The notes below the pieces were generated by a model, which was not told the DNA's origin, searched no databases, and saw nothing but the letters and a program-made list of their open reading frames with translations. The translations under genes were made by a program, and so were the position numbers. Shown one piece after another: positions 10,601-41,052 of a stretch of 42,228 nucleotides of DNA; the first letter of the stretch is position 1, and the number at the start of each line of letters is the position of its first letter. The DNA is from a virus. Lineage: Duplodnaviria; Caudoviricetes. The stretch lies in the IMG/VR virus record IMGVR_UViG_3300027754_000185, positions 1 through 42,228 of that record. The stretch is one strand, 5' to 3'.

Positions 10601-13600
10601 ATGCGGTCAATCCTGTTAGGGCTTTAAGACATGAATCTGTCCATGCTTTGAAAGAACTTGGGTTCTTTACAGACGGGCAATGGAAAGCTTTGGTAAATCA
10701 AGCCAATACCAAATGGATTAACAAATATCTTAAACAAAAAAATGTAAGCGGAAATCCATTGGCTGCGGGTGAAGAGTCCCGCTATGAAGCCTACATGAAA
10801 GCTTATGATGGCAATCAAGAAGCAATCATTGAAGAAGCCATTGCAGATGCTTTTGCAGATTTTGATGTAAACGGTGCTCCAGCAGGATTCATGGCTGCAT
10901 TGCTTACCAAGATTCAGAACTTCTTCAAAGCATTGCTGAACGCTTTAAACGGTGCAGGATTCCAAACCGCAGAAGATGTGTTTGGTAAGGTTGAGCGTGG
11001 TGAGTTACGTGGTACTAAAGAAGCTAAAAAAATAAACAAAATTGACGAGAGAAAAAGTTTAAAAGCAGGGTTCCGTGTTCCATTGTCTACAGTTGATTTA
11101 ATGGAAAGTGATGCATTAGTATCCAGAAAAGAATTGAATTTAAAGGTTGAAAAAGAGGAAGATGAACGAGCGGGTCAGTTAAACAACGTTCGTGAAATTG
11201 CTGTTTCTTTAAACAACCAGACAGTTCGTCAATTTGGAAAGATGGATCGCAATAATCTTACTGAAGAAGATGCTGTAAAAATTTCTGAAGCTATGGCAGA
11301 CGAGGTTCTGTACCAGCTTGACACAACTTCTACAACAGGAACTGGGCTAGGCTGGTACTCAAACAATTACCCAAATGCGGTAAAACGTTTATCAACAAAA
11401 TTCCCAGAGTTAAAAACTAACCGACATGCACGGGCTGTGTTTACAGCATTAGTGGCAATTACCTCCAACGGAGAAAGAGTTAAAAAGAACATTTCCAACG
11501 CTATCAATCTTTATTCCAAGCTGCGGATGGGTAAACCATTGGTGGCTATGGGAAATCGTAGACCAACTGCTTTGCAAAATAATCTAAAAACATTAGAGGA
11601 TTTGCTTATAGAACATGGTGAAAACTTTGAACAGCATTTGTTAAAAGAAACTACAGTTTCTGAAATGAATGTTCAGTTGCGTGCAAGAGGTGAAAAACCA
11701 GACGCAAGCTACTTGGCAGAAACCACAGTCCCAACAGCAGCCATTTATTTTGGGCCAAAGCTAGGTGCTTTCTATGCCAATCTTTCTGGGTCTGAAGGCT
11801 ATTTAACAATGGATCTGTGGTGGACACGTACCGTCAATCGTATGCGTGGTTTGTTAATTCCTATGGCAACTGCTGCATCCATTGGAAAATTCAGATCAAT
11901 GATGGAAAGGCCAAATTTAACCCGTGATGAAATTGTTTCGGCTGCTATTCCTTTTAGAGATAAGTATCTGGAGTATGGGTACAACACTGATTTGGAACAT
12001 TTAACAAAATCCAAAGAACCTGCTAAAAAGTTTTTAAAAGCTGCTTGGTTTAAACGTGCTGAAAAAGTTGCTGGTGACAGTTACGATCAGTTGTTGTACG
12101 AACACAACTTAGAAAAGATGGCAAACACCATCTACAAGAACGAATACGAAATGTTGGCAGAAGCTCCATTCACTGCCTCTGACAGAAAATTTATGTACGA
12201 TGTTGGGAGAAAGACACAGTCCCTATTGCGTAATCAGGGAGTTAGTCTTACACTGGCAGACATACAGGCAGCATTGTGGTACTACGAGAAGCGCCTGTAC
12301 CAAAAACTAAGCGGAAGGAAAGCAGATGATATCGGATACGAAGAAGCAATCATCGCCCAAGCCAATGAGGGTACTGGACGAGCAAGACCCAGTGTGGTCT
12401 TCATTGGAGGGGTTGACGGTGGGTCTGTCGCCACAGGAGAGATCGAAAGTTCTGAGGGACTTCGTGAAGAGCCTACCGCTGAAGAATCCAAAGTAGAAGG
12501 AACAAATGAAAACATTTCACCTAGAGAACCTACCGTTCGACCCAGCGATAGAAGCGGGGAAGGACGCAGTGCGGCAAATGGAACAAAACTCTCCCTCCGA
12601 GAAGACATACGATCCTATAGAGGACGCAATGAAATGCAATCCCGGACTCACACGGAAAAAAGCATTGGAGATGGCAGAAGCGTTCGGGTTCTAGGCGCAA
12701 AGCCTATAGCTGAGTTTACCCCTACCGATTCGTTTAAGGGGATTGTCAACGGGTACGGTCATCAGTCTCCTGTGTTTTATGAGATCAGCGGCAAAGATGC
12801 TGCGATCTATGAACAGGCAATACAGGATTCAAAAGATGCCAGCCCATACGGTGCTGCTGTCTATGTCTATCCCGTAGAAGAATACGCAGACATGCGCCTC
12901 TTTATGACAGAGGATGGAAAATCAGGTGTTGCCCTTAAAGGTGATGACATTGTTTCTGTCTTTTCTGGGCCACCTCACAAAGGTTCTGTCAACTCTTCAA
13001 TGCAACTTGCTGTACAAGAAGGCGGCAGAAGGCTTGATGCTTTTGCAACTGTTCTTCCATCGCTTTACAACGCCAACGGCTTTCAAGTTGTAGGCCGCAT
13101 GAAATGGAACGAAGATTACAAGCCAGAAAACTGGGACAAGAAGACATTCTCTGATTTTAATAATGGTGAGCCTGATGTTGTTTACATGGCATACGATCCA
13201 GATGACAACAGGACAGTATTTGAAAATCCGGGTGAATATTTTGATGACCCTGATAAGCTTTCACAAGCGCAAAAGGATGCTGTAAACAAAAATGTTAAGT
13301 ACTCCCTTGGTAAAGGAATCGTACTTGGAACAAAACAAGAAGGATCTATTTCTTTCAACGGAACCCACTACGGAAAAATAAAAACAGACAATCTAAATTC
13401 CTCTAAATACGGCACTGGTTTACAAGGATCAGAATCCCGTAGACTAAGCGGGTACTGGGATGACCGCATCAAGAAGCGGGTCTATTTCTACGTTCCTAAG
13501 TATGACGGGACAATGCCGCTGCCAGAATCTGGTGTAGGTGGTTATGTTTACACACAAAAGTTTGACAACATAGCCAGCCCTGCGGTTATGAGCAAGCTCT

Positions 13601-16600
13601 ATGCAGAAGCCCGTGGTGATGCCAACACTATGGAAACCTTAGTTGTTGAAGCTGGCTACGATGGCTATGCTGCTCCTTCAATGGGAATGATGGTTATTCT
13701 TAACCATGATGTGCCTGTTAACTACGAAGGAACCAAGGCTGAGTTTGATGCTAAGAAACCTAAGTTAAGCCTACGTGCAGCACCTAATACACCTGAATTT
13801 AAACGCTGGTTTGGCAATAGCAAGGTTGTGGATGAGAATGGTAAGCCGATGGTGATGTATCACGGCACAATTACAGACATTACAAGTTTTGAACCCCGCG
13901 CACAAGGTGGAGGTAATGCAATTTGGTTAACTCCTGATCCTGAGTTTGCATCAAGTTTTGCCGTAGATAGAGAGGGTAGGCTTGATGAGGGTGCTGCTGA
14001 AGGCGGCAATGTTATGCCAGTGTATGTAAGAGCTACAAACACATTTGATTATGAAAAACCAGAACATCTAAAAATATTGCAGGATTATCTGCTAGAAGAA
14101 TACCCGAGTGGACAAATAAAAAATACTGCTGGTGCAAACACAAAAATCCGCAATGGAATTGCAATGTTGCGAGACAAAGATGATGGCATGGCATTTTTTC
14201 TGCAATCAGAATCAGTATTTGATGCAGTGCAAGATTTAGGTTTTGACAGCATGTCTGAGCGGTTTGAGGATGTTAACAACTTAATTGTTTTTAAACCCAC
14301 TCAAATAAAATCAGCCATAGGAAACACAGGTGCTTACGATGCTACAAACCCAGACATCCGCTATAGCTTGAAGAACACAGCTTTCCACAGTGGCGATCTT
14401 GGCTACGGCAAGGACACTGTGCTTGGCAGAATGAGCGGAAGAAGCACAGGCCACTTTGGAACGGGAACGTATTTTACTAGCACAGAGCCAGAAGAATCAC
14501 GTTTTAATCCTAGGGCAGACAGGCCCAAGCATATGGTCAGCTTAGATGGTTACAAGTTGGCAAGACCTCGCACAAAAGATAACGCAAAAATATTGCACAA
14601 AGGGCTGGAGCAAGTTAATGATTTATCATCGTATTTAAATGGTGTTGAGAAGATTGATGGCGAAACTCGAAAGCGAGTAGATAAGCTATCTGATGATGCT
14701 GCATTTAATGTTTTTATATCCATCCTACCGGGTCAAGAAATCAGTGAAATAAAACAGATGACATTAAAGGCGGCTATTGCCGCCACCAAAGAATACGAAT
14801 CTGTTGCACATAAAACAACATATGCGGAAACTGCGGCGACAAGGTTAATGCGTGCATTGGGTTATGACGGCGTTGATGTGCGCCATCTGCCTGATTACGA
14901 CAATACACTCTATGGCACAGTTGTCTATGGAAAAACGTTTAAAGAACGTGCGCCACAAGAGAAATACAGCCTTACTCAAAAGATCAATTCCTTACCAAAC
15001 AGTGCCAAGATACTTGACAGCGTCAATAAGATCGTTTCTGTACAGGAGCAAACAGGCCATGTAGAAAGAATGGTTGCTGCGTTTTCACCAAAGAGCAGAT
15101 CAAATTTCAGAGCAGCTTTCATTGACCGGTACAACCAGATTGGTGTAAACAGCAAGCAGGTTGCTAAACTCAAGGGTGAGAATTGGCTCTTGGCAGATGT
15201 AAGCGCAGAAGCTGCTGCCAACATGTCTGACCTAGCAACTGGTGTCTCTGCATCTGCATTAGGTGTTGGTCAAGGTAAAGGCGGTATACCTGTGTATGCC
15301 AATGGGTTTACCAAAGTTTTCAATGATGATGGCAAGATCAAGGGTGCTGTTGAGATCTTCTCAACGTTAGCCAAGTACAACAACCCAGAAATTTACAGGC
15401 TGTATCAATGGTGGGCAGGTTCTCTTCGCGGAAAACGATTGCTTGACAATGGAAGAGAACAGAACTACACAAAAGAGGATATCAAGCTTGCAGAAGAACT
15501 GTTGGTTTCTTTCCCTGAATTTGCTCAAGTGCAGAAAGAATGGATTGTTTACAACGATGGCTTGGTCAAATATGCTGTAGACACAGGTGTTCTGACAAAA
15601 GAAGCTGGTGAAAAGTTTAGAGAGTACGGGGACTACATTCCGTTTTACCGCCAGATAGATGGTGAACAGACTGTTGGGCCAAACATCTTTAGCGGTATCT
15701 CTGGTGTCAAAGGCCCGAAAGCATTGAAGGGTAGTGAAGCCCCTCTGGCTGATTTCCTAGAAACCATTGTCAGAAACACTCAGTCCATCATTGAGTCTGG
15801 CATGAAGAACGTTGCTGCCGAAAGAGCCATCAGAGATGCAATAATTCTTGGACAGGCAGAAAAGCTAGACTTCCAACCCAAAGAGTTTAAATCTGATGTT
15901 GTGAGCTATCAGGAAAAAGGCAAGACAGTCTATTACAAGCTGGCAGATCCAGCTTTATATGAGGCAATGAAAGGTTTAAACATACCTGATATGCCTTGGC
16001 TCGGCATTCTTTCCGCACCAGCAAATCTTCTTAGGACTCTGGTTACCAAAGATCCGGGGTTCATGCTTGTCAACTTGATGAGAGACTCAGTCTCTGCATG
16101 GGTAACATCAGGCTCTAGCATGACCCCCATCGTGGATACCATGAATCAATTTGTTAAAACGCTTGCAGGGAAATCCCCAGAAGCTGAAGCATTGATGATG
16201 TCTGGTGTCCTTGGTGGTTATGATTTTGCAAGCAATGTTGAGTCTGGTGGTAAGGATCTAGCTAAATATTTGCGTAAAAAGACAAATACAAAAACCACAA
16301 CAGAATTTTTAGCAACACCGTTTACAAGCATTTGGGAAGCCTTGGAAAAAGGAACAACAGCTTCTGATGCAGCAACCCGTGCAGCTATTTATCGCAGGGT
16401 TATGGATGAAACTGGCAATGAAGCAGAAGCAATCTACAGAGCCTTGGAGGTAATGAACTTCAACCGCAAAGGAAACTCTGCTGTTGTTAGGATATTGACT
16501 GCCGTTGTTCCATTTCTAAACGCCCGAATTCAAGGTCTTGATGTTCTGTACAGAGCAAGCTTTGGTGAAATGGCTAGTAAAGATGCCAAAGCAATTCAAA

Positions 16601-17556
16601 AAGCATTTATCATTCGTGGTTTGTTCTTGATGGGCATGACTGCTTTATATTACGCAGCAACTTCTGATGATGATGAGTACAAAAAACAAGAGCAAGAAGT
16701 TCGGGATAATAATTGGCTGATCCCTTCTCTTGGTATAAAGATACCCATTCCTTTTGAGATTGGTGTTTTGTTTAAAGTGATTCCTGAGAGGATCATGGCC
16801 TATCATTATGGAACTGACACTGGCAAAGATCTTCTTGAATCAGCAGCCAGAAACATTGTTAGCACATTTGCATTTAACCCTGTCCCACAAGCAATAATTC
16901 CTTTTGTAGAAACAGCAACAAACCATTCTTTCTTTACAGGCAGAGAAATTGTTCCTCGTGAATTGAAAGATGTAAGTCCAGAGTTTCAAACCAATGCAGG
17001 AACATCTGGGTTGGCTAAAAGAATTAGCAGTGGTTTGGCTGATATTCTGCCAAGTGGATTAAAAGAAAAGGCTCTGTCCCCAATTCAAATAGACCATATT
17101 GTGAATGGCTACACCGGGACACTGGGCATGTATGCCTCTAGTATGCTCAACTCAGTCTTTGACAGATCCACAGATCCAACCAGAGCAGATCTAAGACTTG
17201 AGCAAATGCCTGTTCTGCGTAGGATATTGATTGACAAAGAAGCTAGAGGCAATGCCACTGCCTACTATGATTTAAAGCACAGCACAGACACAATGGTCAG
17301 AACCATTAATCTGTTGGAAAAAACCCAGAACTTTGAAGAATTAGGTAAATACCAACAAGAAAATTTAAACCTTCTTGCAACACAAGATTACATGAAGGAT
17401 TTGGCAAAAATGATGAAAGAACTGAACGAATATTCTGTGATGATTAAGTCATCACAAATGGATGGAGCCTCAAAGAGAGATGCTTTGTTAGCTATCAGCC
17501 AAGCACAGAATAACGTTACAGCAAATATTAAAACAATTAGGAAGATGCTTAATTAA
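7660..17556 (+). CDS. Giant polyvalent virion protein (~3300 aa): HExxH metallopeptidase, HhH-GPD glycosylase-like, GNAT-like, three ADP-ribosyltransferase-like modules, LPD38-like C-terminus
   Basis: ATG 7660 is preferred over GTG 7627. HESVH at 10630-10644 plus EEAIAD; GWY...GPKLGAFYANL...TMDLW...QAALW; DIVSVF...LDAF...LY..NGF; FKRWFGNSKVVDENGKPMVMYHGT...QIKSAIGN (ART-PolyVal-like); IKIPIPFEIG...SFFTGREIVP...SPIQIDH (LPD38-like). Confidence 0.85.
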   Translation: MPNFRVTSPEGKAYIVTAPEGATEEEILSYAQNNLNTETKVAAPTTAAIPERTYGEVAKDVGAAVATGLGGLGQFPGQLYGLATGDFSDTGLYGKAKELEKYGESLKSPGLVAREKASQARIAEAEKEGQVSSFFTAIKEIITDPVQLPNFLISQSLQSIPSIAAALVPLVGPAASAEIKALQIAAKTATSAAARSIAEKELKDYVADVAIKTGTRQAIGTGAVQQGADIGTGAYEDIYKKLISQNVPEDQAAERALGLARASGASGAVISLLAQKLPGARVLEERLAGIRFGSPGGVGGNIAGRLASGVGVGLKEGLTEIPEEVGGKFSQNLAMQQVDPTQALAEGLGATGGQAFIGGFGLGTVIGSLTNGDSARVAEEKRSIEQAKLQTQKEQALEQALKQQNLTKTQLGITEGQQLGLPAPDELFKQTVNPLFNPFGNYSAADLGINPEVDAYVKQHRQLTGKPNIESYSIEDIQDAMPGTNTVAEKAAIDSFLTKKTGYTREVTYTPQDIQNVAAQKNIETKTKGFDDFLTRTTGISNVAEMSQPQLHAAFTALAQLPKSPDLQILPQGTNATRFTEDQYKKSIESLKAVGNNLSREDVLNKIYDQIKVPYAEPVDPIAVNKAPNAEAEQRNKTYFESLQLKNAESILSKALRENDLETVKVPKFDVIAPDGSVTVSPLTRESAERIAAQTEGFTVKESSVEKIAVVDQSVLPKGFDIQQQSFKQDGVPGGYQIKAGNVLISPTAFATEEEATNKVKNYEAVRANQIEAIDKQLTKLEAEKTKGQNELDAMEVSGSSSTPAYRVASAAFDNQVRGIDTKVVGLNKQKELLAVPLQIIPTGSAIRSGFTVFEQGIPRATLPTKQAAEEHIIANASDETLKNISTSPTPNRLRNKANEEINRRAGKVEPGIRVAKSPELEKQADVENQAQMTKLEEALKPILAKFGLNTTKLKVAKEIDGGKAEASYVGIQDLINIAFDAVNPVRALRHESVHALKELGFFTDGQWKALVNQANTKWINKYLKQKNVSGNPLAAGEESRYEAYMKAYDGNQEAIIEEAIADAFADFDVNGAPAGFMAALLTKIQNFFKALLNALNGAGFQTAEDVFGKVERGELRGTKEAKKINKIDERKSLKAGFRVPLSTVDLMESDALVSRKELNLKVEKEEDERAGQLNNVREIAVSLNNQTVRQFGKMDRNNLTEEDAVKISEAMADEVLYQLDTTSTTGTGLGWYSNNYPNAVKRLSTKFPELKTNRHARAVFTALVAITSNGERVKKNISNAINLYSKLRMGKPLVAMGNRRPTALQNNLKTLEDLLIEHGENFEQHLLKETTVSEMNVQLRARGEKPDASYLAETTVPTAAIYFGPKLGAFYANLSGSEGYLTMDLWWTRTVNRMRGLLIPMATAASIGKFRSMMERPNLTRDEIVSAAIPFRDKYLEYGYNTDLEHLTKSKEPAKKFLKAAWFKRAEKVAGDSYDQLLYEHNLEKMANTIYKNEYEMLAEAPFTASDRKFMYDVGRKTQSLLRNQGVSLTLADIQAALWYYEKRLYQKLSGRKADDIGYEEAIIAQANEGTGRARPSVVFIGGVDGGSVATGEIESSEGLREEPTAEESKVEGTNENISPREPTVRPSDRSGEGRSAANGTKLSLREDIRSYRGRNEMQSRTHTEKSIGDGRSVRVLGAKPIAEFTPTDSFKGIVNGYGHQSPVFYEISGKDAAIYEQAIQDSKDASPYGAAVYVYPVEEYADMRLFMTEDGKSGVALKGDDIVSVFSGPPHKGSVNSSMQLAVQEGGRRLDAFATVLPSLYNANGFQVVGRMKWNEDYKPENWDKKTFSDFNNGEPDVVYMAYDPDDNRTVFENPGEYFDDPDKLSQAQKDAVNKNVKYSLGKGIVLGTKQEGSISFNGTHYGKIKTDNLNSSKYGTGLQGSESRRLSGYWDDRIKKRVYFYVPKYDGTMPLPESGVGGYVYTQKFDNIASPAVMSKLYAEARGDANTMETLVVEAGYDGYAAPSMGMMVILNHDVPVNYEGTKAEFDAKKPKLSLRAAPNTPEFKRWFGNSKVVDENGKPMVMYHGTITDITSFEPRAQGGGNAIWLTPDPEFASSFAVDREGRLDEGAAEGGNVMPVYVRATNTFDYEKPEHLKILQDYLLEEYPSGQIKNTAGANTKIRNGIAMLRDKDDGMAFFLQSESVFDAVQDLGFDSMSERFEDVNNLIVFKPTQIKSAIGNTGAYDATNPDIRYSLKNTAFHSGDLGYGKDTVLGRMSGRSTGHFGTGTYFTSTEPEESRFNPRADRPKHMVSLDGYKLARPRTKDNAKILHKGLEQVNDLSSYLNGVEKIDGETRKRVDKLSDDAAFNVFISILPGQEISEIKQMTLKAAIAATKEYESVAHKTTYAETAATRLMRALGYDGVDVRHLPDYDNTLYGTVVYGKTFKERAPQEKYSLTQKINSLPNSAKILDSVNKIVSVQEQTGHVERMVAAFSPKSRSNFRAAFIDRYNQIGVNSKQVAKLKGENWLLADVSAEAAANMSDLATGVSASALGVGQGKGGIPVYANGFTKVFNDDGKIKGAVEIFSTLAKYNNPEIYRLYQWWAGSLRGKRLLDNGREQNYTKEDIKLAEELLVSFPEFAQVQKEWIVYNDGLVKYAVDTGVLTKEAGEKFREYGDYIPFYRQIDGEQTVGPNIFSGISGVKGPKALKGSEAPLADFLETIVRNTQSIIESGMKNVAAERAIRDAIILGQAEKLDFQPKEFKSDVVSYQEKGKTVYYKLADPALYEAMKGLNIPDMPWLGILSAPANLLRTLVTKDPGFMLVNLMRDSVSAWVTSGSSMTPIVDTMNQFVKTLAGKSPEAEALMMSGVLGGYDFASNVESGGKDLAKYLRKKTNTKTTTEFLATPFTSIWEALEKGTTASDAATRAAIYRRVMDETGNEAEAIYRALEVMNFNRKGNSAVVRILTAVVPFLNARIQGLDVLYRASFGEMASKDAKAIQKAFIIRGLFLMGMTALYYAATSDDDEYKKQEQEVRDNNWLIPSLGIKIPIPFEIGVLFKVIPERIMAYHYGTDTGKDLLESAARNIVSTFAFNPVPQAIIPFVETATNHSFFTGREIVPRELKDVSPEFQTNAGTSGLAKRISSGLADILPSGLKEKALSPIQIDHIVNGYTGTLGMYASSMLNSVFDRSTDPTRADLRLEQMPVLRRILIDKEARGNATAYYDLKHSTDTMVRTINLLEKTQNFEELGKYQQENLNLLATQDYMKDLAKMMKELNEYSVMIKSSQMDGASKRDALLAISQAQNNVTANIKTIRKMLN
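12326..12496 (+). CDS. Putative nested 56-aa gene in the +1 frame of the giant protein
   Basis: GGAAGG SD, then ATG 12326 and TAG 12494-12496. MISDTKKQSSPKPMRVLDEQDPVWSSLEGLTVGLSPQERSKVLRDFVKSLPLKNPK. Not in the ORF track (<60 aa). Confidence 0.5.
   Translation: MISDTKKQSSPKPMRVLDEQDPVWSSLEGLTVGLSPQERSKVLRDFVKSLPLKNPK
12506..12694 (+). CDS. Putative nested 62-aa gene in the +1 frame of the giant protein
   Basis: AAGGA SD just upstream, 9 nt after the previous nested stop. Protein-like helical sequence ending DPIEDAMKCNPGLTRKKALEMAEAFGF. Confidence 0.6.
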   Translation: MKTFHLENLPFDPAIEAGKDAVRQMEQNSPSEKTYDPIEDAMKCNPGLTRKKALEMAEAFGF

Positions 17557-18173: not shown

Positions 18174-18380
18174 TTAAGCTTTTCCTTTTGTGCTGCCCGG
18201 TACATCTGTTCCAGCAGCTTTGGGTCTACCCGCTTGAACGGGTCGTAGAAGTTTACCGGCTTTTTCTTCCGTTTGGAAGATGTGGTCGTTGTAGCAAATT
18301 CTTTTTCTGATGACATAGTTGTCAATCCTTCTTCGTGTATCTTTTACTCTGGTGGGTGAATTACAAATTGGGCACATCAT
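18174..18380 (-). CDS. Zinc-ribbon protein resembling the NrdR N-terminal domain
   Basis: MMCPICNSPTRVKDTR...IRKRICYNDHIFQTEE matches the NrdR-type CPxC...V.DSR...RRR.C...F.T.E pattern. No ATP-cone. Start 18380 inferred. Confidence 0.65.
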   Translation of the reverse strand: MMCPICNSPTRVKDTRRRIDNYVIRKRICYNDHIFQTEEKAGKLLRPVQAGRPKAAGTDVPGSTKGKA

Positions 18381-18690
18381 TGTGTTTTTCAAACCATAGT
18401 TTTTCTCTAACTCCTTCAACACCTCCATCTTCAATAAGTTTAAACTTGACTGTTGGAAAACTACAGCGGTTTTCTTTCACCATCTTGTTCTTGTATTTAA
18501 ACGTGCAGTCTGCACAGTAACCGCTAGGGCCGGGATTTAAAACCCTAGCTGCTTTCTGCCAATCCCTCCATTCAAAAACAGAATTAAAACATTTAGGAAC
18601 TTTATAGCTATCATCTTTATAGTGAACTATAGTGACATCGTTATTTAATTTGGCATAAGATGCTTTGCGTTTTGAATTGAATCCTGTCAT
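18361..18690 (-). CDS. Hypothetical Cys-containing protein
   Basis: 109 aa, PKCF...YCADC...RC. Starts at an array junction. Confidence 0.7.
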   Translation of the reverse strand: MTGFNSKRKASYAKLNNDVTIVHYKDDSYKVPKCFNSVFEWRDWQKAARVLNPGPSGYCADCTFKYKNKMVKENRCSFPTVKFKLIEDGGVEGVREKLWFEKHNDVPNL

Positions 18691-18854
18691 GTGTTCTTCT
18701 CCTTGAGTTTAGCTTCAACTAGGTTGTAGAAAGCAAGCAGCCCTGCTCCATCGTGCTGCTTCAATATTTCTTGGTATTCCTCATCAGTCAGCCCTACCCA
18801 CGGCACTGCATAATCTTGTACATCAGTCTGTGCGTTGCATATAGGGCATCTCAT
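18687..18854 (-). CDS. Array mini-gene, 55 aa
   Basis: Hand-translated MRCPICNAQTDVQDYAVPWVGLTDEEYQEILKQHDGAGLLAFYNLVEAKLKEKNT. ATGA overlaps at both ends. Confidence 0.75.
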   Translation of the reverse strand: MRCPICNAQTDVQDYAVPWVGLTDEEYQEILKQHDGAGLLAFYNLVEAKLKEKNT

Positions 18855-18997
18855 GTGTTACTCCAAGTTCTCATTGCGTATGCACAGTCTCGTTTCAAGT
18901 AGGGCGGTAGCTGCTTGTGTTTAGCCAGCATGTCGGCCCATTGACTGATGTACTTCTCGTAGCGGTCTAGCCATAGGGCTTCTTCTTTTGCGGTCAT
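18851..18997 (-). CDS. Array mini-gene, 48 aa
   Basis: Hand-translated MTAKEEALWLDRYEKYISQWADMLAKHKQLPPYLKRDCAYAMRTWSNT. ATGA overlaps. Confidence 0.7.
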   Translation of the reverse strand: MTAKEEALWLDRYEKYISQWADMLAKHKQLPPYLKRDCAYAMRTWSNT

Positions 18998-19179
18998 GTG
19001 TTCTTCTCCTTTGGTGGTGTGGCATTAAGCACGGCCTCAAGATGTTTTGGGTTTAGCGTCTCCCCAAACTCTTCCTTGTACTTGTGACTGATCTGCCCGA
19101 ACCAGATCAATCGGTTGAGTGCTTCCTCCACGGACATGCCAAGGCGTTCATGTATGTGCTGTTTGTTTGGTTGGGTCAT
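18994..19179 (-). CDS. Array mini-gene, 61 aa
   Basis: MTQPNKQ...PPKEKNT. Start moved to the junction ATG with AAGGAG SD. Confidence 0.7.
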   Translation of the reverse strand: MTQPNKQHIHERLGMSVEEALNRLIWFGQISHKYKEEFGETLNPKHLEAVLNATPPKEKNT

Positions 19180-19391
19180 GTGTTGCGCTCCTTGAGGACG
19201 GACTCCGCACTTATTACTGCTTGGAGTTTTGTTAAGCAAGACTGATCGATTGCCGAAAAGTCTTTCTTCGTCAGCCCTGCCCACGGGCGCTTGGGCGGCA
19301 GGGACGACAACGCCAGCACATCATGCACTTGTCTGAGCACGGCGCACAGACTGTTGTTGGTCTCAACCCACTTGTGTTCTTGCGGTGTCAT
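19176..19391 (-). CDS. Array mini-gene, 71 aa
   Basis: MTPQEHK...RPWAGLT...LKERNT. Start at the junction ATG. Confidence 0.7.
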   Translation of the reverse strand: MTPQEHKWVETNNSLCAVLRQVHDVLALSSLPPKRPWAGLTKKDFSAIDQSCLTKLQAVISAESVLKERNT

Positions 19392-19579
19392 GTGTTGCGC
19401 TCCTTCCAAAAACTGTACCAAAATAATTCTTTCATCCACAAAGGTATCTGCGTGTAAACCGCATTGAACTTGTCGCCGTACTTGCGGTGGTGTTTTACAT
19501 AGGCGTCTTCCAGTGTGCCTATCGGCGGCGGTGGAATGTAGGTCTTGTAAAACTCTAAGTAGTCAATGGGTTGAGTCAT
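19388..19579 (-). CDS. Array mini-gene, 63 aa
   Basis: MTQPIDY...WKERNT. Confidence 0.7.
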   Translation of the reverse strand: MTQPIDYLEFYKTYIPPPPIGTLEDAYVKHHRKYGDKFNAVYTQIPLWMKELFWYSFWKERNT

Positions 19580-20109
19580 GTGTTGCGCTCCTTGAGTCGC
19601 TGCTCAATGGCTCGGGCATCTTTGATTGTTATGTATGGATTTACATCTGAGTCTGCCGTTCCAATCCGACTGACTGCGCTCCAAATCTCCTCATCCGTCA
19701 ACCCTACCCACGGGCGCTGTGCTGCTTTCCACTCAGCCAAAAAGCTGATTGCCTGTAGCCCGTATTCGTCAAGGATGTTCTTGATCAATTCCCACTCGGG
19801 AGGTGGCTGTGCTGCGGGTGGGGTGGCCCTCACCATATGCTTTAGCCAATCAGCCTGAAACCACTCGTCCTGCCCGTTAATCCTGACACATAGGTCTGTG
19901 TGGTGAGCGTGCTTAAGCCGATCAATCAACCGCTGGACAGAGGCCACCTGAATTGAGTTAATGTTTTCGTCGGTCAAAATCCACGCCACAGGCTCCTGCT
20001 CTGGCTGTGCTACTGGCACTGGCAATGCTTTCGTGCCCCCGCAGTCTTTGTAATGACACGCATCTCCGTCTTGGCAGGGGCAGCGAGGGTCTTTTCCTAT
20101 GCATGTCAT
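19576..20109 (-). CDS. Array gene, 177 aa mosaic
   Basis: Cys-rich head (CIGKDPRCPCQDGDACHY), QPEQEPVAW, PWVGLTDEEI...ARAIEQRLKERNT. Confidence 0.75.
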   Translation of the reverse strand: MTCIGKDPRCPCQDGDACHYKDCGGTKALPVPVAQPEQEPVAWILTDENINSIQVASVQRLIDRLKHAHHTDLCVRINGQDEWFQADWLKHMVRATPPAAQPPPEWELIKNILDEYGLQAISFLAEWKAAQRPWVGLTDEEIWSAVSRIGTADSDVNPYITIKDARAIEQRLKERNT

Positions 20110-20339
20110 GTGTTTCCCCTTGCTCTGATTTGCTCTGCAAGTCGTGCGGCTCTTGCTTCATCACATTCCTTCGCACAAGCCTCACGTTCGGCAGCGGTGA
20201 CAAGGGCGGCAAAGGCTTCAAGGTAGTGCAGAAATTTATCTCTGTCCTTGCCCATGCCGTAGAACGACAGCCCGGATGCGTCTGCTATGAGGATAATTTC
20301 ATCTCGTGTCATTGCACCCTCCCTCGACCCGTCTGTCAT
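20106..20339 (-). CDS. Array mini-gene (alternative internal start MTRDEII)
   Basis: EAFAALV.AAEREACAK.C...IRARGNT, a common small phage protein pattern. Confidence 0.7.
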   Translation of the reverse strand: MTDGSREGAMTRDEIILIADASGLSFYGMGKDRDKFLHYLEAFAALVTAAEREACAKECDEARAARLAEQIRARGNT

Positions 20340-20536
20340 GTGTTGCGCTCCTTCAGCTTGGCTTCAATGGCATCGTCTCTACGCCACCAAAAGACCAAGG
20401 TCATCCCATCCCCGCCTTCGACCCCGGCTTCTGGGCTTTCGGTAAAAACAACCCAATCTTCGCCAAAGGAAGGATATGTACCAAGCCGTTCAAACCCTGC
20501 CTTCCGCGCCCACTTGGTGATCTCATTTTTGTTCAT
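20336..20536 (-). CDS. Array mini-gene, 66 aa
   Basis: MNKNEITKWARKAGF...AIEAKLKERNT. SD AAGGAG. Confidence 0.7.
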   Translation of the reverse strand: MNKNEITKWARKAGFERLGTYPSFGEDWVVFTESPEAGVEGGDGMTLVFWWRRDDAIEAKLKERNT

Positions 20537-20678
20537 TCAGTATCTCCTTCTCAAGCACTACTACCGCAGCGTCAATCTGCTCAAACAAGTAGTCGGGCAG
20601 TGTTGTTCTATGGATGGACATTGCACTCTCTATCGCCGACAGTAGGCGTAGGATTCTCAACATTTCTTGCTTAGTCAT
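20523..20678 (-). CDS. Array mini-gene, 51 aa
   Basis: Hand-translated MTKQEMLRILRLLSAIESAMSIHRTTLPDYLFEQIDAAVVVLEKEILNEQK. Confidence 0.7.
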   Translation of the reverse strand: MTKQEMLRILRLLSAIESAMSIHRTTLPDYLFEQIDAAVVVLEKEILNEQK

Positions 20679-20902
20679 GTGTTCTTCTCCTTGAGTTTTG
20701 CTTCGATGGCTCGGGCAAATTTGTCAGCGTGGAGGTCACCGCCAATCGTGCAGTCGTTCACCATTTGCCAAATCTCCTCAACCGTCAGCCCCACCCACGG
20801 CTTGGCGTAGACCTGCGTGTCATCGTCATCGTCAGTTTGCGCTGCCCACAAACGCAAAGCCTCGCGTTCGATCCTTCGGAATTCATCTTCTTCGGAGTTC
20901 AT
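20675..20902 (-). CDS. Array mini-gene, 75 aa
   Basis: ...YAKPWVGLTVEEI...FARAIEAKLKEKNT. Confidence 0.75.
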   Translation of the reverse strand: MNSEEDEFRRIEREALRLWAAQTDDDDDTQVYAKPWVGLTVEEIWQMVNDCTIGGDLHADKFARAIEAKLKEKNT

Positions 20903-21126
20903 GTTTCCCTCTCTTTCAGCATCGCGTCCGCTGCTTTGTATGCTTCTTCTGCAACACCCTCATACCATGTTCCTTCATATGTAGTTAGGCGTGCGTGCAT
21001 AGCCTTGGCAGCAAAGTAGTCGCGCAGGGTCATTCCTTTTTGCGGGTCAACTACTACGTCTTCTTCTCCGGTAAGATAATTATTTCCACGACTTGCGGGG
21101 CGTGGAAACGCTGATTCTTTGTTCAT
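20899..21126 (-). CDS. Conserved small phage protein (GMTLRDYFAAKAM family)
   Basis: AFP...GMTLRDYFAAKAM...AY.AADAML.ER motif. Start at the ATGA overlap, 21126. Confidence 0.8.
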   Translation of the reverse strand: MNKESAFPRPASRGNNYLTGEEDVVVDPQKGMTLRDYFAAKAMHARLTTYEGTWYEGVAEEAYKAADAMLKERET

Positions 21127-21245
21127 ATTAAGGCCCACATTAGTCCCGCAATACCTGCGAGGAAAACAATTGTCATCAAGACAAGAATAATTTTTGTCAC
21201 CCAGTACATAAACTCGTCTATCCCGGTGTAATCGTCATCATCCAT
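21123..21245 (-). CDS. Small single-TM membrane protein, 40 aa
   Basis: Hand-translated MDDDDYTGIDEFMYWVTKIILVLMTIVFLAGIAGLMWALI. SD AAGGAG, fills the operon gap. Confidence 0.7.
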   Translation of the reverse strand: MDDDDYTGIDEFMYWVTKIILVLMTIVFLAGIAGLMWALI

Positions 21246-21546
21246 GTTTGCTCTCCTTGACCGATGCAACACCGTCAGCAAACCCTCTCATGTAATGTTT
21301 CAAATTCATAACTGATCGTGTTTTAAGCACTCGTGGTTTAATTGCAGGAGGTTCTTTAGTCAATAAATCTTTCAAAGCAAAATACCGTTGAAAAGAAGTT
21401 TGTTTTTGCACACCGGTACTCATTTTGCTTATGTTTTGTTCTTTAAGTCCTGAATGTTTGGAAATATCAACCTGTTTCCAACCTTTACTTTTTAATATTT
21501 GAAAAAGTTCTACTAGGGTCAATAGTTTTTCTGTGTTGTTTTTCAT
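21238..21546 (-). CDS. XRE/Cro-like HTH regulator
   Basis: LKSKGWKQVDISKHSGLKEQNISKM HTH pattern. Confidence 0.65.
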   Translation of the reverse strand: MKNNTEKLLTLVELFQILKSKGWKQVDISKHSGLKEQNISKMSTGVQKQTSFQRYFALKDLLTKEPPAIKPRVLKTRSVMNLKHYMRGFADGVASVKESKHG

Positions 21547-21755
21547 GCTTGTTCCTTGTGTTGATTGATATGTTGTTCTAACCGTTTGATGCGAGTGTCG
21601 TTGTAACGCACCACAGAAACAGCATAGTCAACTGCTGTCTCAGCTTCCAGCTTGCACAAATGGGCAATTGCAAGTTCTTTTGAGATCATCTCTAATGGCG
21701 TTGGACGCCGAAAATAAGTTTTGATTAAATTAATCATGGTGCTTAATCTTGTCAA
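21543..21755 (-). CDS. Hypothetical protein
   Basis: FRRPTPLEM...L.A...YA helical small protein, coupled to its neighbours. Confidence 0.65.
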   Translation of the reverse strand: MTRLSTMINLIKTYFRRPTPLEMISKELAIAHLCKLEAETAVDYAVSVVRYNDTRIKRLEQHINQHKEQA

Positions 21756-21966
21756 CTGGCATCACAGAAGATATCCAGAAACCATTGTTGTTTAAACTCA
21801 TTCCTTTCTTTAACATTTCTTTTGAGGTTCTGCATCTTCGGGTAGAACCATGATCACCTGTTCGATGTTTATCAAAGGAATAGCTGCTGTTGAAATATTC
21901 CATGCACCCTTGACATTGATTTTTATCGCCCGTTAATTTTTTAGGGGCAATGTTTACATCAACCAT
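21730..21966 (-). CDS. Zinc-binding protein with FDxHR motif
   Basis: CQGC..YF.S..SFDKHR.G....RRC. Start 21966 inferred. Confidence 0.7.
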   Translation of the reverse strand: MVDVNIAPKKLTGDKNQCQGCMEYFNSSYSFDKHRTGDHGSTRRCRTSKEMLKKGMSLNNNGFWISSVMPVDKIKHHD

Positions 21967-22270
21967 TTTTTGCACCTTGTAATAAACATTTGTAAAGATC
22001 ATCAGACATCAGTTCTGCAAAAGATTTCCCGCTTGGGAATCTCATTTTGCTGGCAGTGTTGGCGCTAACAACCTCAATGGATTTTTTAATGCCATCGTTG
22101 TAGCCGCTTGCATAAGTTGAATCAGACAGACGCATTGAGATTGCCTCTCTAATCACAGAAGACATGGTAAGTTTTTTAGCCTTGGAAAATTTTCTAAGTT
22201 TTGTGTATTCACTTTCCTCAATGTAGGCCATGAATGGCTTCAGCTTTAAATTTTGCATTTTTAAAATCAT
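21959..22270 (-). CDS. Ribbon-helix-helix DNA-binding protein
   Basis: FMAYIEESEYTKLRKFS...TMSSVIREAI pattern. Confidence 0.65.
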   Translation of the reverse strand: MILKMQNLKLKPFMAYIEESEYTKLRKFSKAKKLTMSSVIREAISMRLSDSTYASGYNDGIKKSIEVVSANTASKMRFPSGKSFAELMSDDLYKCLLQGAKNG

Positions 22271-22323
22271 AAGATTTTCCTTGTAAGTTCTATGACCCCC
22301 ATGAAGGGGGCCACAGGATCAGA

Positions 22324-22623
22324 TCAGAATGGAACGTTGTCATCCTGACCAAAGCTGCTTGACAATTTTCTTTCTGCAATTGCATCGTGCTCTGGAACCC
22401 ACCTATTAATTGCAAGCGACAAATAGGTTTGACCTGCGCTGTTTCGTTTCTTCCAGCCACTGATCTTAAACACCGACAAGCCATCAACAACTTGTACCGC
22501 TGTTGTGTTTGACAGGTCAATCGCAATACTCCCCCAATAGTCAGGAGATGACTCAAGTTTTTTAGTGGTGTTTGCCTTCAAACTGCCGCCATCAGGATAT
22601 TCTTTAAACTCTTTTTCACTCAT
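22324..22623 (-). CDS. Putative small single-stranded DNA-binding protein
   Basis: PDYWGSI...ISGWK....G.TYLSL fold pattern, acidic DDNVPF tail, directly after the annealase. Confidence 0.65.
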   Translation of the reverse strand: MSEKEFKEYPDGGSLKANTTKKLESSPDYWGSIAIDLSNTTAVQVVDGLSVFKISGWKKRNSAGQTYLSLAINRWVPEHDAIAERKLSSSFGQDDNVPF

Positions 22624-22627
22624 TTCT

Positions 22628-23290
22628 TTACTCCAAAAAAGATTTCTTCAAGTTGGTAAATTTCTCTAACACTTCCTTGTAAAACTCTAGGTGAGTTTTC
22701 TTCAGGCTCTCTAACTGCGTTTGGTTTGCCATCCAATAGCTTGTCAAACCATCCACATCCTTGCTAATGCTTGTGTACTCAATCATTGCATCAGCGAATG
22801 CTCTCCTGCTTTCGTCGTCGTTGCTCCACTCAGTCACCTGTACCCCTCTGTATTTTTTCTCTTCCTTTGCCTCCTTTACATCATTTACATCATTTACGGC
22901 TTTTACGTCCTTTACATAGCTTTCGGGGATGTCCTCTCCAGCGTAGATGTACAGACCCAGCCCATGCATTGCCACAGCCTTGACCAAGCAGCGCATGATT
23001 GATGTGTTTACATCAAATGAGTTTGGTGTGGCAATCGGTTTGTTGCGGTAGTCCAGAACCGGCAACATGCAGGTCACAGGCTTCTCAAACATAGTCACAG
23101 TGACCCAGACCATGAATGTGCCACCGACAGGCATAAGCGGTGTCCCGTCAAACATCTCCACCTTGAAGTTGGCGGTAGGGTCAGCCTTCAGAGCCTCTGC
23201 CCATGCCCATGCCCATGACAGGTAACTCAGGTTGTTCTTCTTCTCAACCTTGTCTTTAAGATTGATCGATAAAAGATCAGACGAATTCAT
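22628..23290 (-). CDS. Sak/Rad52-like single-strand annealing protein (DUF1071-type)
   Basis: EKKNNLSYLSWAWAW...LPVLDYRNK...FDVNTSIMRCLVKAVAMHGLGLYIYAGED. Confidence 0.9.
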   Translation of the reverse strand: MNSSDLLSINLKDKVEKKNNLSYLSWAWAWAEALKADPTANFKVEMFDGTPLMPVGGTFMVWVTVTMFEKPVTCMLPVLDYRNKPIATPNSFDVNTSIMRCLVKAVAMHGLGLYIYAGEDIPESYVKDVKAVNDVNDVKEAKEEKKYRGVQVTEWSNDDESRRAFADAMIEYTSISKDVDGLTSYWMANQTQLESLKKTHLEFYKEVLEKFTNLKKSFLE

Positions 23291-24146
23291 TGATTTCTCC
23301 TTGATACTGTTTACACCATTTGGCTACACCGCAGTAGTTCCCAGCGCATCTTCTCGGTTCTCCGGGTCTTACCTCAACATAACCTTTCTTCTCTGTCGCC
23401 ATCTCTAGTGCCTCACTTTCATTGGTCAATACTCGGATTGCAGTTTTGCGATCCACCTTTTTTACAGCGTAGGTCGTCTCCGACATCCACCGATCTGCAT
23501 CGGAACATGGTTGTAGTTCCTCTGAAAATTCAATAGCCACCTTGCTCCTCTGATGCATGGCAAGCCTGTTCCTTACAAACAGTTCGGCTTCGTAGCTGTT
23601 CCACATGGGTACATCCACTACGCAGATCTGGCTTTTTGGGTAGTCCTCTTTGTTGCTCCCGTGCTTGTTGAAGTCTTTGAGCAATGCACAGACCTTCAGT
23701 GCTATGACATTCTTCTTCTTGACAGTCTCAATCAGCCACTTGTACATGTTGAGTTGCTCCACCCACTCACGCTTCTCTCCCATGACTGACCAAACAGATG
23801 TAAACTTGTAGTCCCACAAAATGATCCCCTCTGGGGTCGTTTGTTGAGCATCAATCGCACCTGAGATTTCAATGCCATCCAACGTTGTGAAGAGCCTCTC
23901 CTCAGAGACAAACCCATGAGCCTTGACTCCCTCAAACTGAGCGTGAAGAGCAGTGCCTAAAAATCGTGGGAGCATATCGCTAACATCCTCCTCCATCTCG
24001 TTTTCGTACTGTTCTCGGAACCTTGCCACCTTGGGGGGCTGCAACAATCCCGTTACACTGTACTGGCTAGTGCCCTTGCTGTAACTGTCCTTGGACATCA
24101 TATTTACCAATGGCAGAGGCAAATCAAACTTGTTTGTAACCTTCAT
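23277..24146 (-). CDS. PD-(D/E)xK exonuclease (Cas4/RecB-like), recombination partner
   Basis: GTALH, ISGAID...WDYK, QLNMY, C-terminal RC...YC.V..WC. Confidence 0.85.
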   Translation of the reverse strand: MKVTNKFDLPLPLVNMMSKDSYSKGTSQYSVTGLLQPPKVARFREQYENEMEEDVSDMLPRFLGTALHAQFEGVKAHGFVSEERLFTTLDGIEISGAIDAQQTTPEGIILWDYKFTSVWSVMGEKREWVEQLNMYKWLIETVKKKNVIALKVCALLKDFNKHGSNKEDYPKSQICVVDVPMWNSYEAELFVRNRLAMHQRSKVAIEFSEELQPCSDADRWMSETTYAVKKVDRKTAIRVLTNESEALEMATEKKGYVEVRPGEPRRCAGNYCGVAKWCKQYQGEINEFV

Positions 24147-24160
24147 CGGAATCCTTTTTT

Positions 24161-24613
24161 ATGAACCATGATCTGTATGATAGTGCCATTGTAGAGGAAT
24201 TACAAGCGATATCACTAATTATTTTTGGTGAACCTGCAAGTAAGTCAAATTCTAGGAGAGTTGTGCGAATAAACAACACATCTCGCTTGATAAAATCAAA
24301 AAAAGCTTTAAGCTACTCAGACATCTTTAGGAATCAGTGTAGGAAACTGACCACCTTGCTCACTGGGGATCTGATGGTGACGATGCACATCCACTACGCA
24401 TCAAGGCGTCCAGACCTAGACGAGAGTCTGATCTTGGACTTGATGCAGGGGTTCATCTACGAGAACGATAGGCAGGTCAAGGAGCGCCACACCTACTGGC
24501 ACTTGGACAAGGAGAGACCCCGTGCTGAAATTTTTGTGTCGAGGATAGAGGAAATTGAACCCAAAAAAAAGCCCCGTCAACATCGGGGCAAAAATGGCAC
24601 TGCAATGCCGTAA
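24161..24613 (+). CDS. rusA: RusA-like Holliday junction resolvase
   Basis: GEPASKSN, RRPDLD...LDLMQG.IYENDRQV...RAEI. True start may be downstream. Confidence 0.8.
   Translation: MNHDLYDSAIVEELQAISLIIFGEPASKSNSRRVVRINNTSRLIKSKKALSYSDIFRNQCRKLTTLLTGDLMVTMHIHYASRRPDLDESLILDLMQGFIYENDRQVKERHTYWHLDKERPRAEIFVSRIEEIEPKKKPRQHRGKNGTAMP
24177..24205 (-). promoter_or_regulatory. Putative sigma70 promoter for the leftward recombination/mini-gene operon
   Basis: TTGTAA (24205-24200)-N17-TATCAT (24182-24177), 30 nt before the exonuclease ATG. Confidence 0.5.
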
Positions 24614-28021: not shown

Positions 28022-28558
28022 TTACGTAAGGTAGGCAAAGCCTAATTTCTGATTCCTGCAACGCCACGCTACTGTTGGTCTTGGCATATTCAATGCTTTT
28101 GCACATTCAACAACGGAACCCCATGTTCCACTTGGTGTGCTAACCATTCGTGCTAAGTAATGTTTTGAACCATGTTTTGCGCTCCTCTTAACCTTAACCT
28201 CTGGCCTATGCATGGGGTTATTTTCTCCCAAACACCAAGGATGTGGGATGCCCCGCATGGATTGAGATTTCTTTTGGCGCGTCTCATCGGTATCAAGTTT
28301 TCCAAGATTGCCCAACCTTGCGTTTTCACTCCCAGTGCCAATAAACACGTTGCCAAGCTCATATGGGCCAACATCCCCATTTCGGCACATACAAAACTCT
28401 GCTGCACCGCGACCCCGTTGCTCCAACTTTCCAGATGCGTTCCAAAGTTCCAACCATTGCTCAAACGTCAGCAAGAATGAAATTCCCCTAGTTCTGGCGT
28501 TTGACTTTTGCACCTTATAAGCCTTTAAAAACTTTGCTTGTTCTGTAGCTGTATACAT
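28022..28558 (-). CDS. Free-standing HNH-type homing endonuclease with NUMOD-like DNA-binding tail
   Basis: RGISFLLTFEQW...MCRNGDVGPYELGNVFI; ETRQKKSQSMRG; GENNPM; SVVECAKALNM HTH. SD AAGGAG. Confidence 0.75.
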   Translation of the reverse strand: MYTATEQAKFLKAYKVQKSNARTRGISFLLTFEQWLELWNASGKLEQRGRGAAEFCMCRNGDVGPYELGNVFIGTGSENARLGNLGKLDTDETRQKKSQSMRGIPHPWCLGENNPMHRPEVKVKRSAKHGSKHYLARMVSTPSGTWGSVVECAKALNMPRPTVAWRCRNQKLGFAYLT

Positions 28559-30447: not shown

Positions 30448-32186
<1,739 letters not shown>

Positions 32187-32190
<4 letters not shown>

Positions 32191-40861: not shown

Positions 40862-41052
40862 TCCAAAATTTTGTGCGGGTACTGCGCGAAAAGATTCGTA
40901 CCGACATGAACAACTACGCCGATGACTTGGCTGGGGGTGCTTGTCGCAATTTCGAAGAGTACCAAAAACTCTGCGGGACTATTCAGGGTCTAGCTCTCGC
41001 AGAGCGTTATCTAATTGACCTTGCTGACAAAGCAGAAAGAGCCGATGAGTAA
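40858..41052 (+). CDS. Small conserved head-region protein
   Basis: 64 aa, EEYQKLCGTIQGL, coupled to the portal stop. Confidence 0.75.
   Translation: MIQNFVRVLREKIRTDMNNYADDLAGGACRNFEEYQKLCGTIQGLALAERYLIDLADKAERADE

What the first reader, a model, noticed from the sequence alone, without database searches (positions are those of the whole stretch)
18687..20920. Cassette-like mini-gene array joined by a repeated RBS-stop-start junction
Seen: about ten consecutive 48-177 aa genes whose boundaries carry the same minus-strand sequence AAGGAG(AAG/CGC)AACAC-ATGA. Full copies are at 18687, 18994, 19176, 19388, 19576, 20336 and 20675, with variants at 18851, 20106 and 20899. The 18-mer does four jobs: it encodes the last codons of one gene (KE[K/R]NT), the SD of the next, its ATG, and the overlapping TGA. 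Eight of ten downstream genes start Met-Thr, although the gene bodies are mostly unrelated. Known: Sak/Rad52-type annealases recombine short, imperfect homologies, and one is encoded with an exonuclease and SSB-like gene in the same operon. Inference: this is an integrase-free, integron-like system in which any crossover at a junction adds, drops or reorders a gene while keeping frame and translational coupling.
Basis: partly seen in the sequence, partly recalled or inferred. Interest (0 to 1): 0.88.

Follow-up and report, generated by a model that had tools for sequence, protein, structure and literature searches.

The report
Shared gene joints shuffle phage mini-genes
A freshwater phage chains ten tiny genes with an 18-letter joint that ends one gene and starts the next, and related phages carry the same genes beside different neighbours with the change falling mostly at that joint, which likely serves as a shared landing pad for ordinary recombination rather than for a dedicated enzyme.

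Summary
Observation confirmed: 7 exact copies of AAGGAG(AAG/CGC)AACACATGA, all in the array, none elsewhere in 42 kb (chance 0.1). About 4,700 IMG/VR stretches carry it. Relatives carry two of the window's genes at 90-96% nucleotide identity, even where the terminase is 53% identical, but beside many other neighbours. 59 of 91 window breakpoints fall at the 18-mer (10% of positions), and its silent codon positions are frozen.

Three corrections. (1) The 18-mer is one of several joints: an intragenic PWVGLTDEE block swaps half-genes as often, and array boundaries without the motif also switch (0.54 vs 0.80). (2) Sak is not required: it is in 1 of 39 carrier records. (3) Order is mostly kept (23 of 659 marker pairs inverted), and there is no attC hairpin or integrase, so this is not an integron.

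Best reading: a translationally coupled version of the known linker-sequence/PeSL shuffling model. The enzyme, circles and protein functions are untested; only contigs were available. The scan noted similar arrays on other DNA before.

The parts
20675..20692 (-). exact 18-nt junction (AAG allele); homology to the 18687 copy extends to 31 nt
20336..20353 (-). exact junction (CGC allele)
19576..19593 (-). exact junction (CGC); upstream limit of homology for the 63-aa gene in many relatives
19388..19405 (-). exact junction (CGC); 17 boundaries with this upstream end lead to 7 different downstream genes
19176..19193 (-). exact junction (CGC); 27 boundaries with this downstream gene have 12 different upstream ends
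18994..19011 (-). exact junction (AAG); 22 boundaries with this upstream end lead to 12 different downstream genes, many through register-shifted variants
18687..18704 (-). exact junction (AAG); distal end of the array
18851..18868 (-). variant junction (…GGAGTAACACATGA, 4 mismatches); also a breakpoint
20106..20123 (-). IRARGNT-type junction, a second junction family sharing the 3' core AACACATGA
20899..20916 (-). ADAML-type junction at the proximal end of the array
20768..20800 (-). intragenic PWVGLT hub; L125 diverges from the window just upstream of it (20803)
19681..19713 (-). intragenic PWVGLTDEE hub
19254..19286 (-). intragenic PWAGLT hub; L188 shares the gene only up to 19269
18771..18803 (-). 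intragenic PWVGLTDEE hub
20675..20902 (-). 75-aa ORF of a large unnamed family (at least 1,188 protein clusters); predicted helix, linker and C-terminal helix pair; no Pfam or PDB match
20523..20678 (-). 51-aa ORF (MTKQE…), present in relatives with or without the 18-mer in front
20336..20536 (-). 66-aa ORF, likely a chimera; absent from L125; its start lacks the motif
20106..20339 (-). 77-aa ORF (…DEII…AEREACA…IRARGNT); 5' part shared with relatives up to the REACA block
19576..20109 (-). 177-aa mosaic ORF built from separately shared pieces
19388..19579 (-). 63-aa ORF moved whole, junction to junction, at 90-96% nt identity
19176..19391 (-). 71-aa ORF; absent in 8 representative loci that join its two neighbours directly, replaced by other genes in 5
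18994..19179 (-). 61-aa ORF moved whole at 91-95% nt identity
18851..18997 (-). 48-aa ORF, 96-100% identical in other arrays with other neighbours
18687..18854 (-). 55-aa chimera: start of an NrdR-like zinc-ribbon gene fused to the PWVGL…KLKEKNT module
22628..23290 (-). Sak single-strand annealing protein; candidate but not required enzyme
23277..24146 (-). PD-(D/E)XK exonuclease
22324..22623 (-). SSB-like ORF (weak hit)

Best explanation
The array is a hypervariable stretch of small accessory genes whose neighbours change between phages mostly at a few short shared DNA blocks, and these blocks likely act as linkers for general homology-driven recombination between co-infecting phages. The 18-mer is the main between-gene linker. 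Because it holds the last codons, the Shine-Dalgarno site, the ATG and the overlapping TGA, a crossover inside it would leave both neighbours in frame and coupled, so such recombinants would be both made more often and kept more often. A second block inside genes (PWVGLTDEE) does the same for half-genes. Genes that end in or start at the linker would join a pool shared by distant phages, which would keep its DNA spelling fixed. Shown: motif, variable content, breakpoint positions, frozen codons. Inferred: that homology drives the crossovers, co-infection, and the enzyme (Sak here, host or unrecognised proteins elsewhere).
For: 59 of 91 window breakpoints, from 25 representative loci, lie at the 18-mer, which covers 10% of positions; as distinct 10-nt bins, 14 of 35. 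Over 162 arrays, 264 of 963 unique breakpoints lie at motif starts, 4.6-fold over random, against 0.36-fold inside genes. Shared segments start at the 5' edge of the 18-mer when the downstream gene is shared and end at its 3' edge when the upstream gene is shared, so both partners hold it. Switch fractions: KE[KR]N junction 328/410 pairs, other array boundaries 96/177, outside array 49/163, mid-gene 49/681, PWVGL hub 41/46. A rare junction allele (KEHST) precedes the same gene after two different upstream genes, each of which also occurs with the KERNT allele, so crossovers fall inside the junction. Silent sites in 70 gene ends from loci fetched by protein: CGC 37/39 Arg (background 0.28), AAC 67/70 (0.65), AAG 28/31 (0.52). 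In IMG/VR the AAC form is in about 4,700 stretches and the synonymous AAT form in about 680. 251 motif boundaries link 186 upstream and 179 downstream clusters; 54 of 166 upstream ends matched neither pattern for the longer module. Genes at 91-94% nt identity sit in phages whose terminase is 53% identical.
Against: Boundaries without the motif also switch often. In the first cut, ATGA-overlap boundaries with and without the motif had the same per-site rate (0.81 vs 0.81); the gap (0.84 vs 0.66, p 0.011, sites not independent) appeared only after I regrouped register-shifted variants with the motif. Pairs with unlike junctions switch as often (235/281) and share a median of only 5 nt before the ATG. 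19 of 39 clean indels had neither junction within 2 mismatches in register. The closest relative, L125, differs at non-18-mer sites. Window junction pairs share 19-37 nt, often with a mismatched middle codon, which is mostly below the 23-27 bp quoted for Red-beta and 31-34 bp for RecA (PMC3945230). No known annealase was found in 9 of 14 near-complete carriers. Most informative pairs come from loci fetched with the window's own junction-flanked genes, and all data are assembled contigs.
Confidence: 0.68

Rival explanations
1. Breaks are random or use microhomology of a few bases, and selection keeps only those at gene and domain edges. The 18-mer is common because it is the tail of one very large gene family and hitchhikes with it, not because it directs crossovers.
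For: Non-motif array boundaries switch at 0.54 and mixed-junction pairs at 0.84. ATGA boundaries were equal in the first cut. 112 of 166 motif-bearing upstream ends carry the longer PWVGL or helix module. This is the standard alternative model (PMC3233612 passage).
Against: Both partners usually hold the whole 18-mer and hybrid alleles exist. Unrelated genes carry the 18-mer alone, starting exactly at AAGGAG. Silent sites in the hub are also fixed (GGG 26/27, CTG 24/27).
Confidence: 0.2
2. The motif is kept for expression: an optimal coupled start or a binding site for a translational regulator, like the Start Associated Sequences of cluster K mycobacteriophages. Recombination there is a side effect.
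For: The same 18-mer occurs singly at what look like coupled gene pairs in ordinary bacterial operons: about half of the 16 genome hits, for example in Chitinimonas, Nonomuraea and Bradyrhizobium. It always lies on the coding strand at a start.
Against: It is absent from all other starts in the window. It does not explain the intragenic hub, which behaves the same way. No antisense copy of the AACACATGA core exists elsewhere in the contig (record 69% complete).
Confidence: 0.08
3. The 18-mer is the core site of a dedicated, still unknown site-specific recombinase, as attC is for IntI.
For: Strong sequence fixation across distant phages.
Against: No tyrosine recombinase or serine resolvase in the window record; tyrosine integrase in 2 of 40 records. 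No dyad or hairpin (12 folds, z from -1.8 to +1.9). Crossovers fall on both sides of the middle codon and at several unrelated blocks.
Confidence: 0.04

Closest known systems
Linker / conserved boundary sequence model of phage mosaicism (Susskind and Botstein 1978; Clark et al. 2001, HK620). Originals not read; seen as cited in passages of PMC3233612, PMC2327257 and PMC2839356
   Same: Short sequences shared between genes of different phages mark where modules are exchanged, with gene order largely kept.
   Different: Here the linker recurs 7 times within 2 kb, delimits single 48-177-aa genes, is itself coding plus SD, start and stop, and is paired with an intragenic linker that swaps half-genes.
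PeSL cassettes of T4-type phages (PMC2839356: abstract and Discussion read; PMC4122927: abstract read)
   Same: Repeats inside hyperplastic regions act as recombination points for gain, loss and replacement of small unknown genes without an integrase. The authors already drew the integron comparison.
   Different: PeSLs are intergenic promoter plus terminator elements that isolate transcription, and mini-circles were shown. This joint has no promoter or stem-loop, lies within the reading frames and couples translation; circles are untested.
Relaxed homologous recombination by Rad52-like recombinases (PMC3945230 and PMC2327257, passages read)
   Same: Mosaic patches above 90% identity with homology traces at their borders; the window encodes Sak with an exonuclease.
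   Different: There the traces are longer diverged flanks in temperate phages. Here they are 19-37-nt fixed blocks, and most carriers have no recognised annealase or integrase.
Start Associated Sequences of cluster K mycobacteriophages (PMC3203893, passages read)
   Same: An asymmetric repeat containing an SD-like site just upstream of start codons of small genes of different families.
   Different: SAS are described as possible translation or binding signals, about half with 17-bp inverted repeats. This motif also supplies the upstream stop, is confined to one array and marks breakpoints.
Integrons (defining features recalled, not from a call)
   Same: Tandem single-gene units of unknown function, with variable content.
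   Different: No IntI, no attC hairpin, several exchange blocks, mostly conserved order.

Membership tests
Integron | IntI tyrosine recombinase next to the array | tested here: not met
   PF00589: 0 in the window record, 2 of 40 records. The window record is about 69% complete, but both flanks of the array are present.
Integron | attC sites folding into a hairpin on one strand | tested here: not met
   6 of 7 junctions folded on both strands: no shared structure, z -1.78 to +1.92; no inverted repeat at the junctions
Integron | circular cassette intermediates | not testable with these tools
   All 8 runs laid were contigs, none raw reads
PeSL cassettes | sigma-70-like promoter plus terminator stem-loop in the repeat | tested here: not met
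   No promoter-like or minus-strand terminator-like site at any junction
PeSL cassettes | indels and replacements of small genes bounded by the repeat | tested here: met
   10 of 39 clean indels have the motif at both ends, 10 at one; 59 of 91 window breakpoints
PeSL cassettes | mini-circles | not testable with these tools
   No raw or long reads were available
Linker / boundary-sequence mosaicism | short sequence shared by both partners at the mosaic joint | tested here: met
   126 of 144 both-motif switched pairs share at least 14 nt before the ATG (partly by definition of the class)
Linker / boundary-sequence mosaicism | joints enriched at the linker beyond ordinary gene boundaries | tested here: inconclusive
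   0.80 vs 0.54 after regrouping variants; no difference among ATGA boundaries in the first cut
Linker / boundary-sequence mosaicism | exchange shown to depend on homologous recombination | not testable with these tools
   Needs a cross or plasmid assay
Sak-driven shuffling | Sak present in phages that carry and trade the cassettes | tested here: not met
   1 of 39 records, 1 of 14 near-complete, 0 of the 13 fetched through the window's genes
Start Associated Sequences | repeat immediately upstream of start codons, mostly in one orientation | tested here: met
Start Associated Sequences | role in translation or regulator binding | not testable with these tools
   No expression data

The most novel reading that the evidence does not exclude
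A self-maintaining, enzyme-independent plug standard shared by thousands of freshwater phages of distant lineages. One fixed 18-nt stop/SD/start joint and one or more fixed in-gene joints let any phage add, drop or rebuild small proteins from a common library of whole genes and half-genes, with selection acting on the DNA spelling itself because only correctly spelled genes can enter the pool. Single genes may travel as junction-closed circles.
Probability: 0.3. Interest if true: 0.8.

Novelty: new variant of a known kind. Interest (0 to 1): 0.55.

Why it matters
Whether phage mosaicism comes from recombination at short shared linkers or from random breaks filtered by selection is described as open in the papers read (PMC3233612, PMC3945230). 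This array gives a large natural data set and a clean experiment, because the joint can be scrambled silently while protein, SD and overlap stay intact. It also points to a large unnamed family of modular small proteins whose variable middles are swapped between fixed ends, a likely source of host-interaction or anti-defence functions (inference; no function was found). For annotation, many 'hypothetical' freshwater phage proteins ending KEKNT or KERNT likely share that end because of a DNA joint, not a common function.

Tried and rejected
Preferred RBS: rejected; no other match in the contig, and in the 36 of 39 records with a match the copies lie on one strand within about 2.2 kb (these records were chosen by motif or cassette).

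attC or PeSL structure: none.

Sak dependence: rejected as a general requirement. Sak4, ERF, Gp2.5-like, RecT, Rad52 and RecA families together with Sak cover 10 of 39 records over cut-off and 5 of 14 near-complete ones.

Read-level joints: the 8 runs laid were contigs. Listed joints mostly have sides under 35 nt and can come from other phages, so I did not count them as deletions in this population.

Protein function: no Pfam hit for the ten ORFs, one unknown PHROG for the 177-aa ORF, one spurious Pfam hit in 15 of 117 family members, no PDB fold at E <= 0.001, nothing over the bar in the ESM Atlas.

Cultured relatives: only short matches among 50,697 phage records. Host: three or four hits in Rhodoferax or Burkholderiales bins look array-like, but bins are unreliable, so the host is not assigned.

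Literature: nine searches showed no paper on this motif or on a coding stop/SD/start linker array. The library lacks most subscription papers, and supplements were not read.
Full report
Setting. The window is a whole 42,228-base phage contig, estimated 69% complete. It encodes terminase, portal, ejection proteins, a primase-helicase and RusA. The three runs holding most of the array are freshwater metagenomes. The array lies on the minus strand downstream of exonuclease, Sak and an SSB-like gene. Its G+C is 51-52%, against 37-43% in the 1-kb bins on either side.

Observation. Seven exact copies of AAGGAG-NNN-AACACATGA sit at the stated places and none elsewhere at up to 2 mismatches (shuffle mean 0.10). 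Each supplies KE[K/R]NT*, an SD and an ATGA overlap, and 8 of 10 downstream genes start Met-Thr. One boundary in the run has no motif. Contigs of runs X1 and X2 span the 18687, 18851, 18994, 19176, 20336 and 20675 junctions with no differences; these runs may be the source samples.

Spread. About 4,700 IMG/VR stretches hold the exact pattern, estimated from 2 of 64 parts; the synonymous AAT form is in about 680, from 12 of 64 parts. I pooled the loci with the window. I dropped L220 (the window's own record) and the 16 bacterial-genome loci, and collapsed 250 sequences to 198 representatives, 162 of which had a motif-bearing array. No site lay on the opposite strand. The middle codon was AAG in 119 and CGC in 58 of the 219 exact sites. 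In 77 loci fetched by protein rather than by motif, 70 distinct KE[KR]NT* ends used CGC for 37 of 39 Arg (background 0.28), AAG for 28 of 31 Lys (0.52) and AAC for 67 of 70 Asn (0.65). These positions lie in the SD-start spacer, so peptide, SD and overlap do not explain them; recent common descent could contribute.

Variable content. The 63-aa gene (19388-19579) and the 61-aa gene (18994-19179) occur at 90-96% nucleotide identity in other arrays, and the identity typically starts and stops at the junctions. The 61-aa gene has 12 different upstream ends among 27 boundaries and 12 different followers among 22. The 63-aa gene has 7 followers among 17. Between these two genes the window has a 71-aa gene, four loci have another gene, one has a third, and eight have none. 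Carriers G001 and G005 share these genes at 91-94% while their terminase is 53% identical to the window's, and G005 and G007 encode a DNA polymerase, exonuclease and helicase module. L180 shares both flanks but has a different run of genes between them.

Breakpoints. Of 91 breakpoints mapped on the window from 25 loci, 59 fall at the 18-mer (10% of positions), 15 at hubs (15%) and 11 elsewhere (69%); as distinct bins, 14, 10 and 7 of 35. Over all arrays the enrichment is 4.6-fold at motif starts, 2.3-fold at starts without the motif, about 3-fold at the PWVGL and REACA hubs and 0.36-fold inside genes (963 unique breakpoints). Among pairs sharing one side at about 87% or more, the other side changes in 0.80 of KE[KR]N junction pairs, 0.54 of other array boundaries, 0.30 outside the array, 0.07 at mid-gene and 0.89 at the PWVGL hub. 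Against my reading, the first version of this test found equal per-site rates (0.81) for ATGA boundaries with and without the motif. The difference appeared after I moved one-base-shifted variants into the motif class, a choice made after seeing the data. Pairs are not independent, and most come from loci fetched with junction-flanked genes; the subset not so chosen shows the same direction on few pairs (per site 0.90 vs 0.65 vs 0.21). The best sign of crossovers inside the joint is allele mixing. The KEHST allele precedes the 61-aa gene after two different upstream genes, each also seen with KERNT. The middle codon tracks both the upstream gene (77 of 84 pairs) and the downstream gene (137 of 163), against 53% at random, with exceptions on both sides.

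The closest relative, L125 (93.5% over 20803-24300), diverges inside a gene just before the PWVGL hub, keeps the MTKQE gene without the 18-mer, and lacks the 66-aa gene by a start-to-start change at a plain SD plus ATGA. The window's 55-aa gene is a fusion of an NrdR-like start to the PWVGL module. Order is mostly fixed: 23 of 659 co-occurring marker pairs show both orders, although L188 does reverse two window genes. Sak is in 1 of 39 records, and any of seven annealase or RecA families in 5 of 14 near-complete ones; some of the motif-scan records may be single chance carriers. There is no integrase or resolvase in the window record, and no hairpin or promoter at the joints.

Mechanism. The most likely reading (0.68) is general homology-driven exchange at short fixed linkers, helped by the fact that any such crossover preserves frame and coupling. 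The window's junction pairs offer 19-37 nt, around or below the 23-27 bp quoted for Red-beta (PMC3945230, passages), so single events would be rare, and one end of an exchange may often use a longer shared gene body. Selection for intact genes also acts, and with hitchhiking it is the main rival (0.20). The same 18-mer at single gene pairs in bacterial operons suggests that it began as an ordinary good coupled start. Misassembly cannot be excluded without reads. The joints are shorter than usual assembly word sizes (recalled), but shared gene bodies could fuse contigs.

Proteins. The module-bearing 75-aa protein has at least 1,188 relatives among 7,996 candidates scored, with fixed ends around a variable middle. 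The model (pLDDT 85, pTM 0.51) shows three helices with no PDB match. Function is not established.

Comparison. It works like the linker model and like PeSL shuffling (PMC2839356, abstract and Discussion read; PMC4122927, abstract). It is neither a PeSL nor an integron by the tests listed. Nine searches found no paper on this motif. Earlier scan notes describe similar arrays on other DNA; I did not check them and take no support from them.

Verdict: real, widespread and well supported at the comparative level; a new variant of a known kind; interest 0.55.

Noticed in passing
window 7660-17556 (+): 3,298-aa protein after the DNA ejection genes, matching only unknown PHROG families in its C-terminal half; probably a giant injected protein.
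   Followed up: no
window 30448-33638 (-): CobT-like and CobS-like/AAA ATPase gene pair.
   Followed up: no
window 41045-41473 (+): GroES-like co-chaperonin after the portal gene.
   Followed up: no
window 18174-18434 (-) and 18814-18859: NrdR-like zinc-ribbon gene downstream of the array; a second copy of such a gene's first 46 nt forms the start of the 55-aa chimera inside the array.
   Followed up: partly
window 20310-20339 (-): After the junction's ATG there is a 27-nt leader with its own SD and a second ATG, where relatives start the gene: a likely relic of an earlier exchange.
   Followed up: partly
L270:6354-7316 and L269:7334-8239: Unclassified 301-320-aa protein (phrog_27714) just before the primase and after a 140-aa ORF (weak Gam-like hit in L270), in carriers that lack any known annealase; candidate unrecognised SSB or annealase.
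   Followed up: no
L246, L247, L249, L251-L253, L255: The same 18-mer, encoding KEKNT*, joins single gene pairs in ordinary bacterial operons, apparently a regulator followed by a coupled gene (gene types judged by eye).
   Followed up: partly
L222:450-1150: Three successive paralogues of the …EREACA…IRARGNT gene type with different middles, suggesting expansion by unequal exchange at a second junction family.
   Followed up: no
window 28022-28558 (-): Free-standing HNH-type endonuclease gene downstream of the primase-helicase.
   Followed up: no
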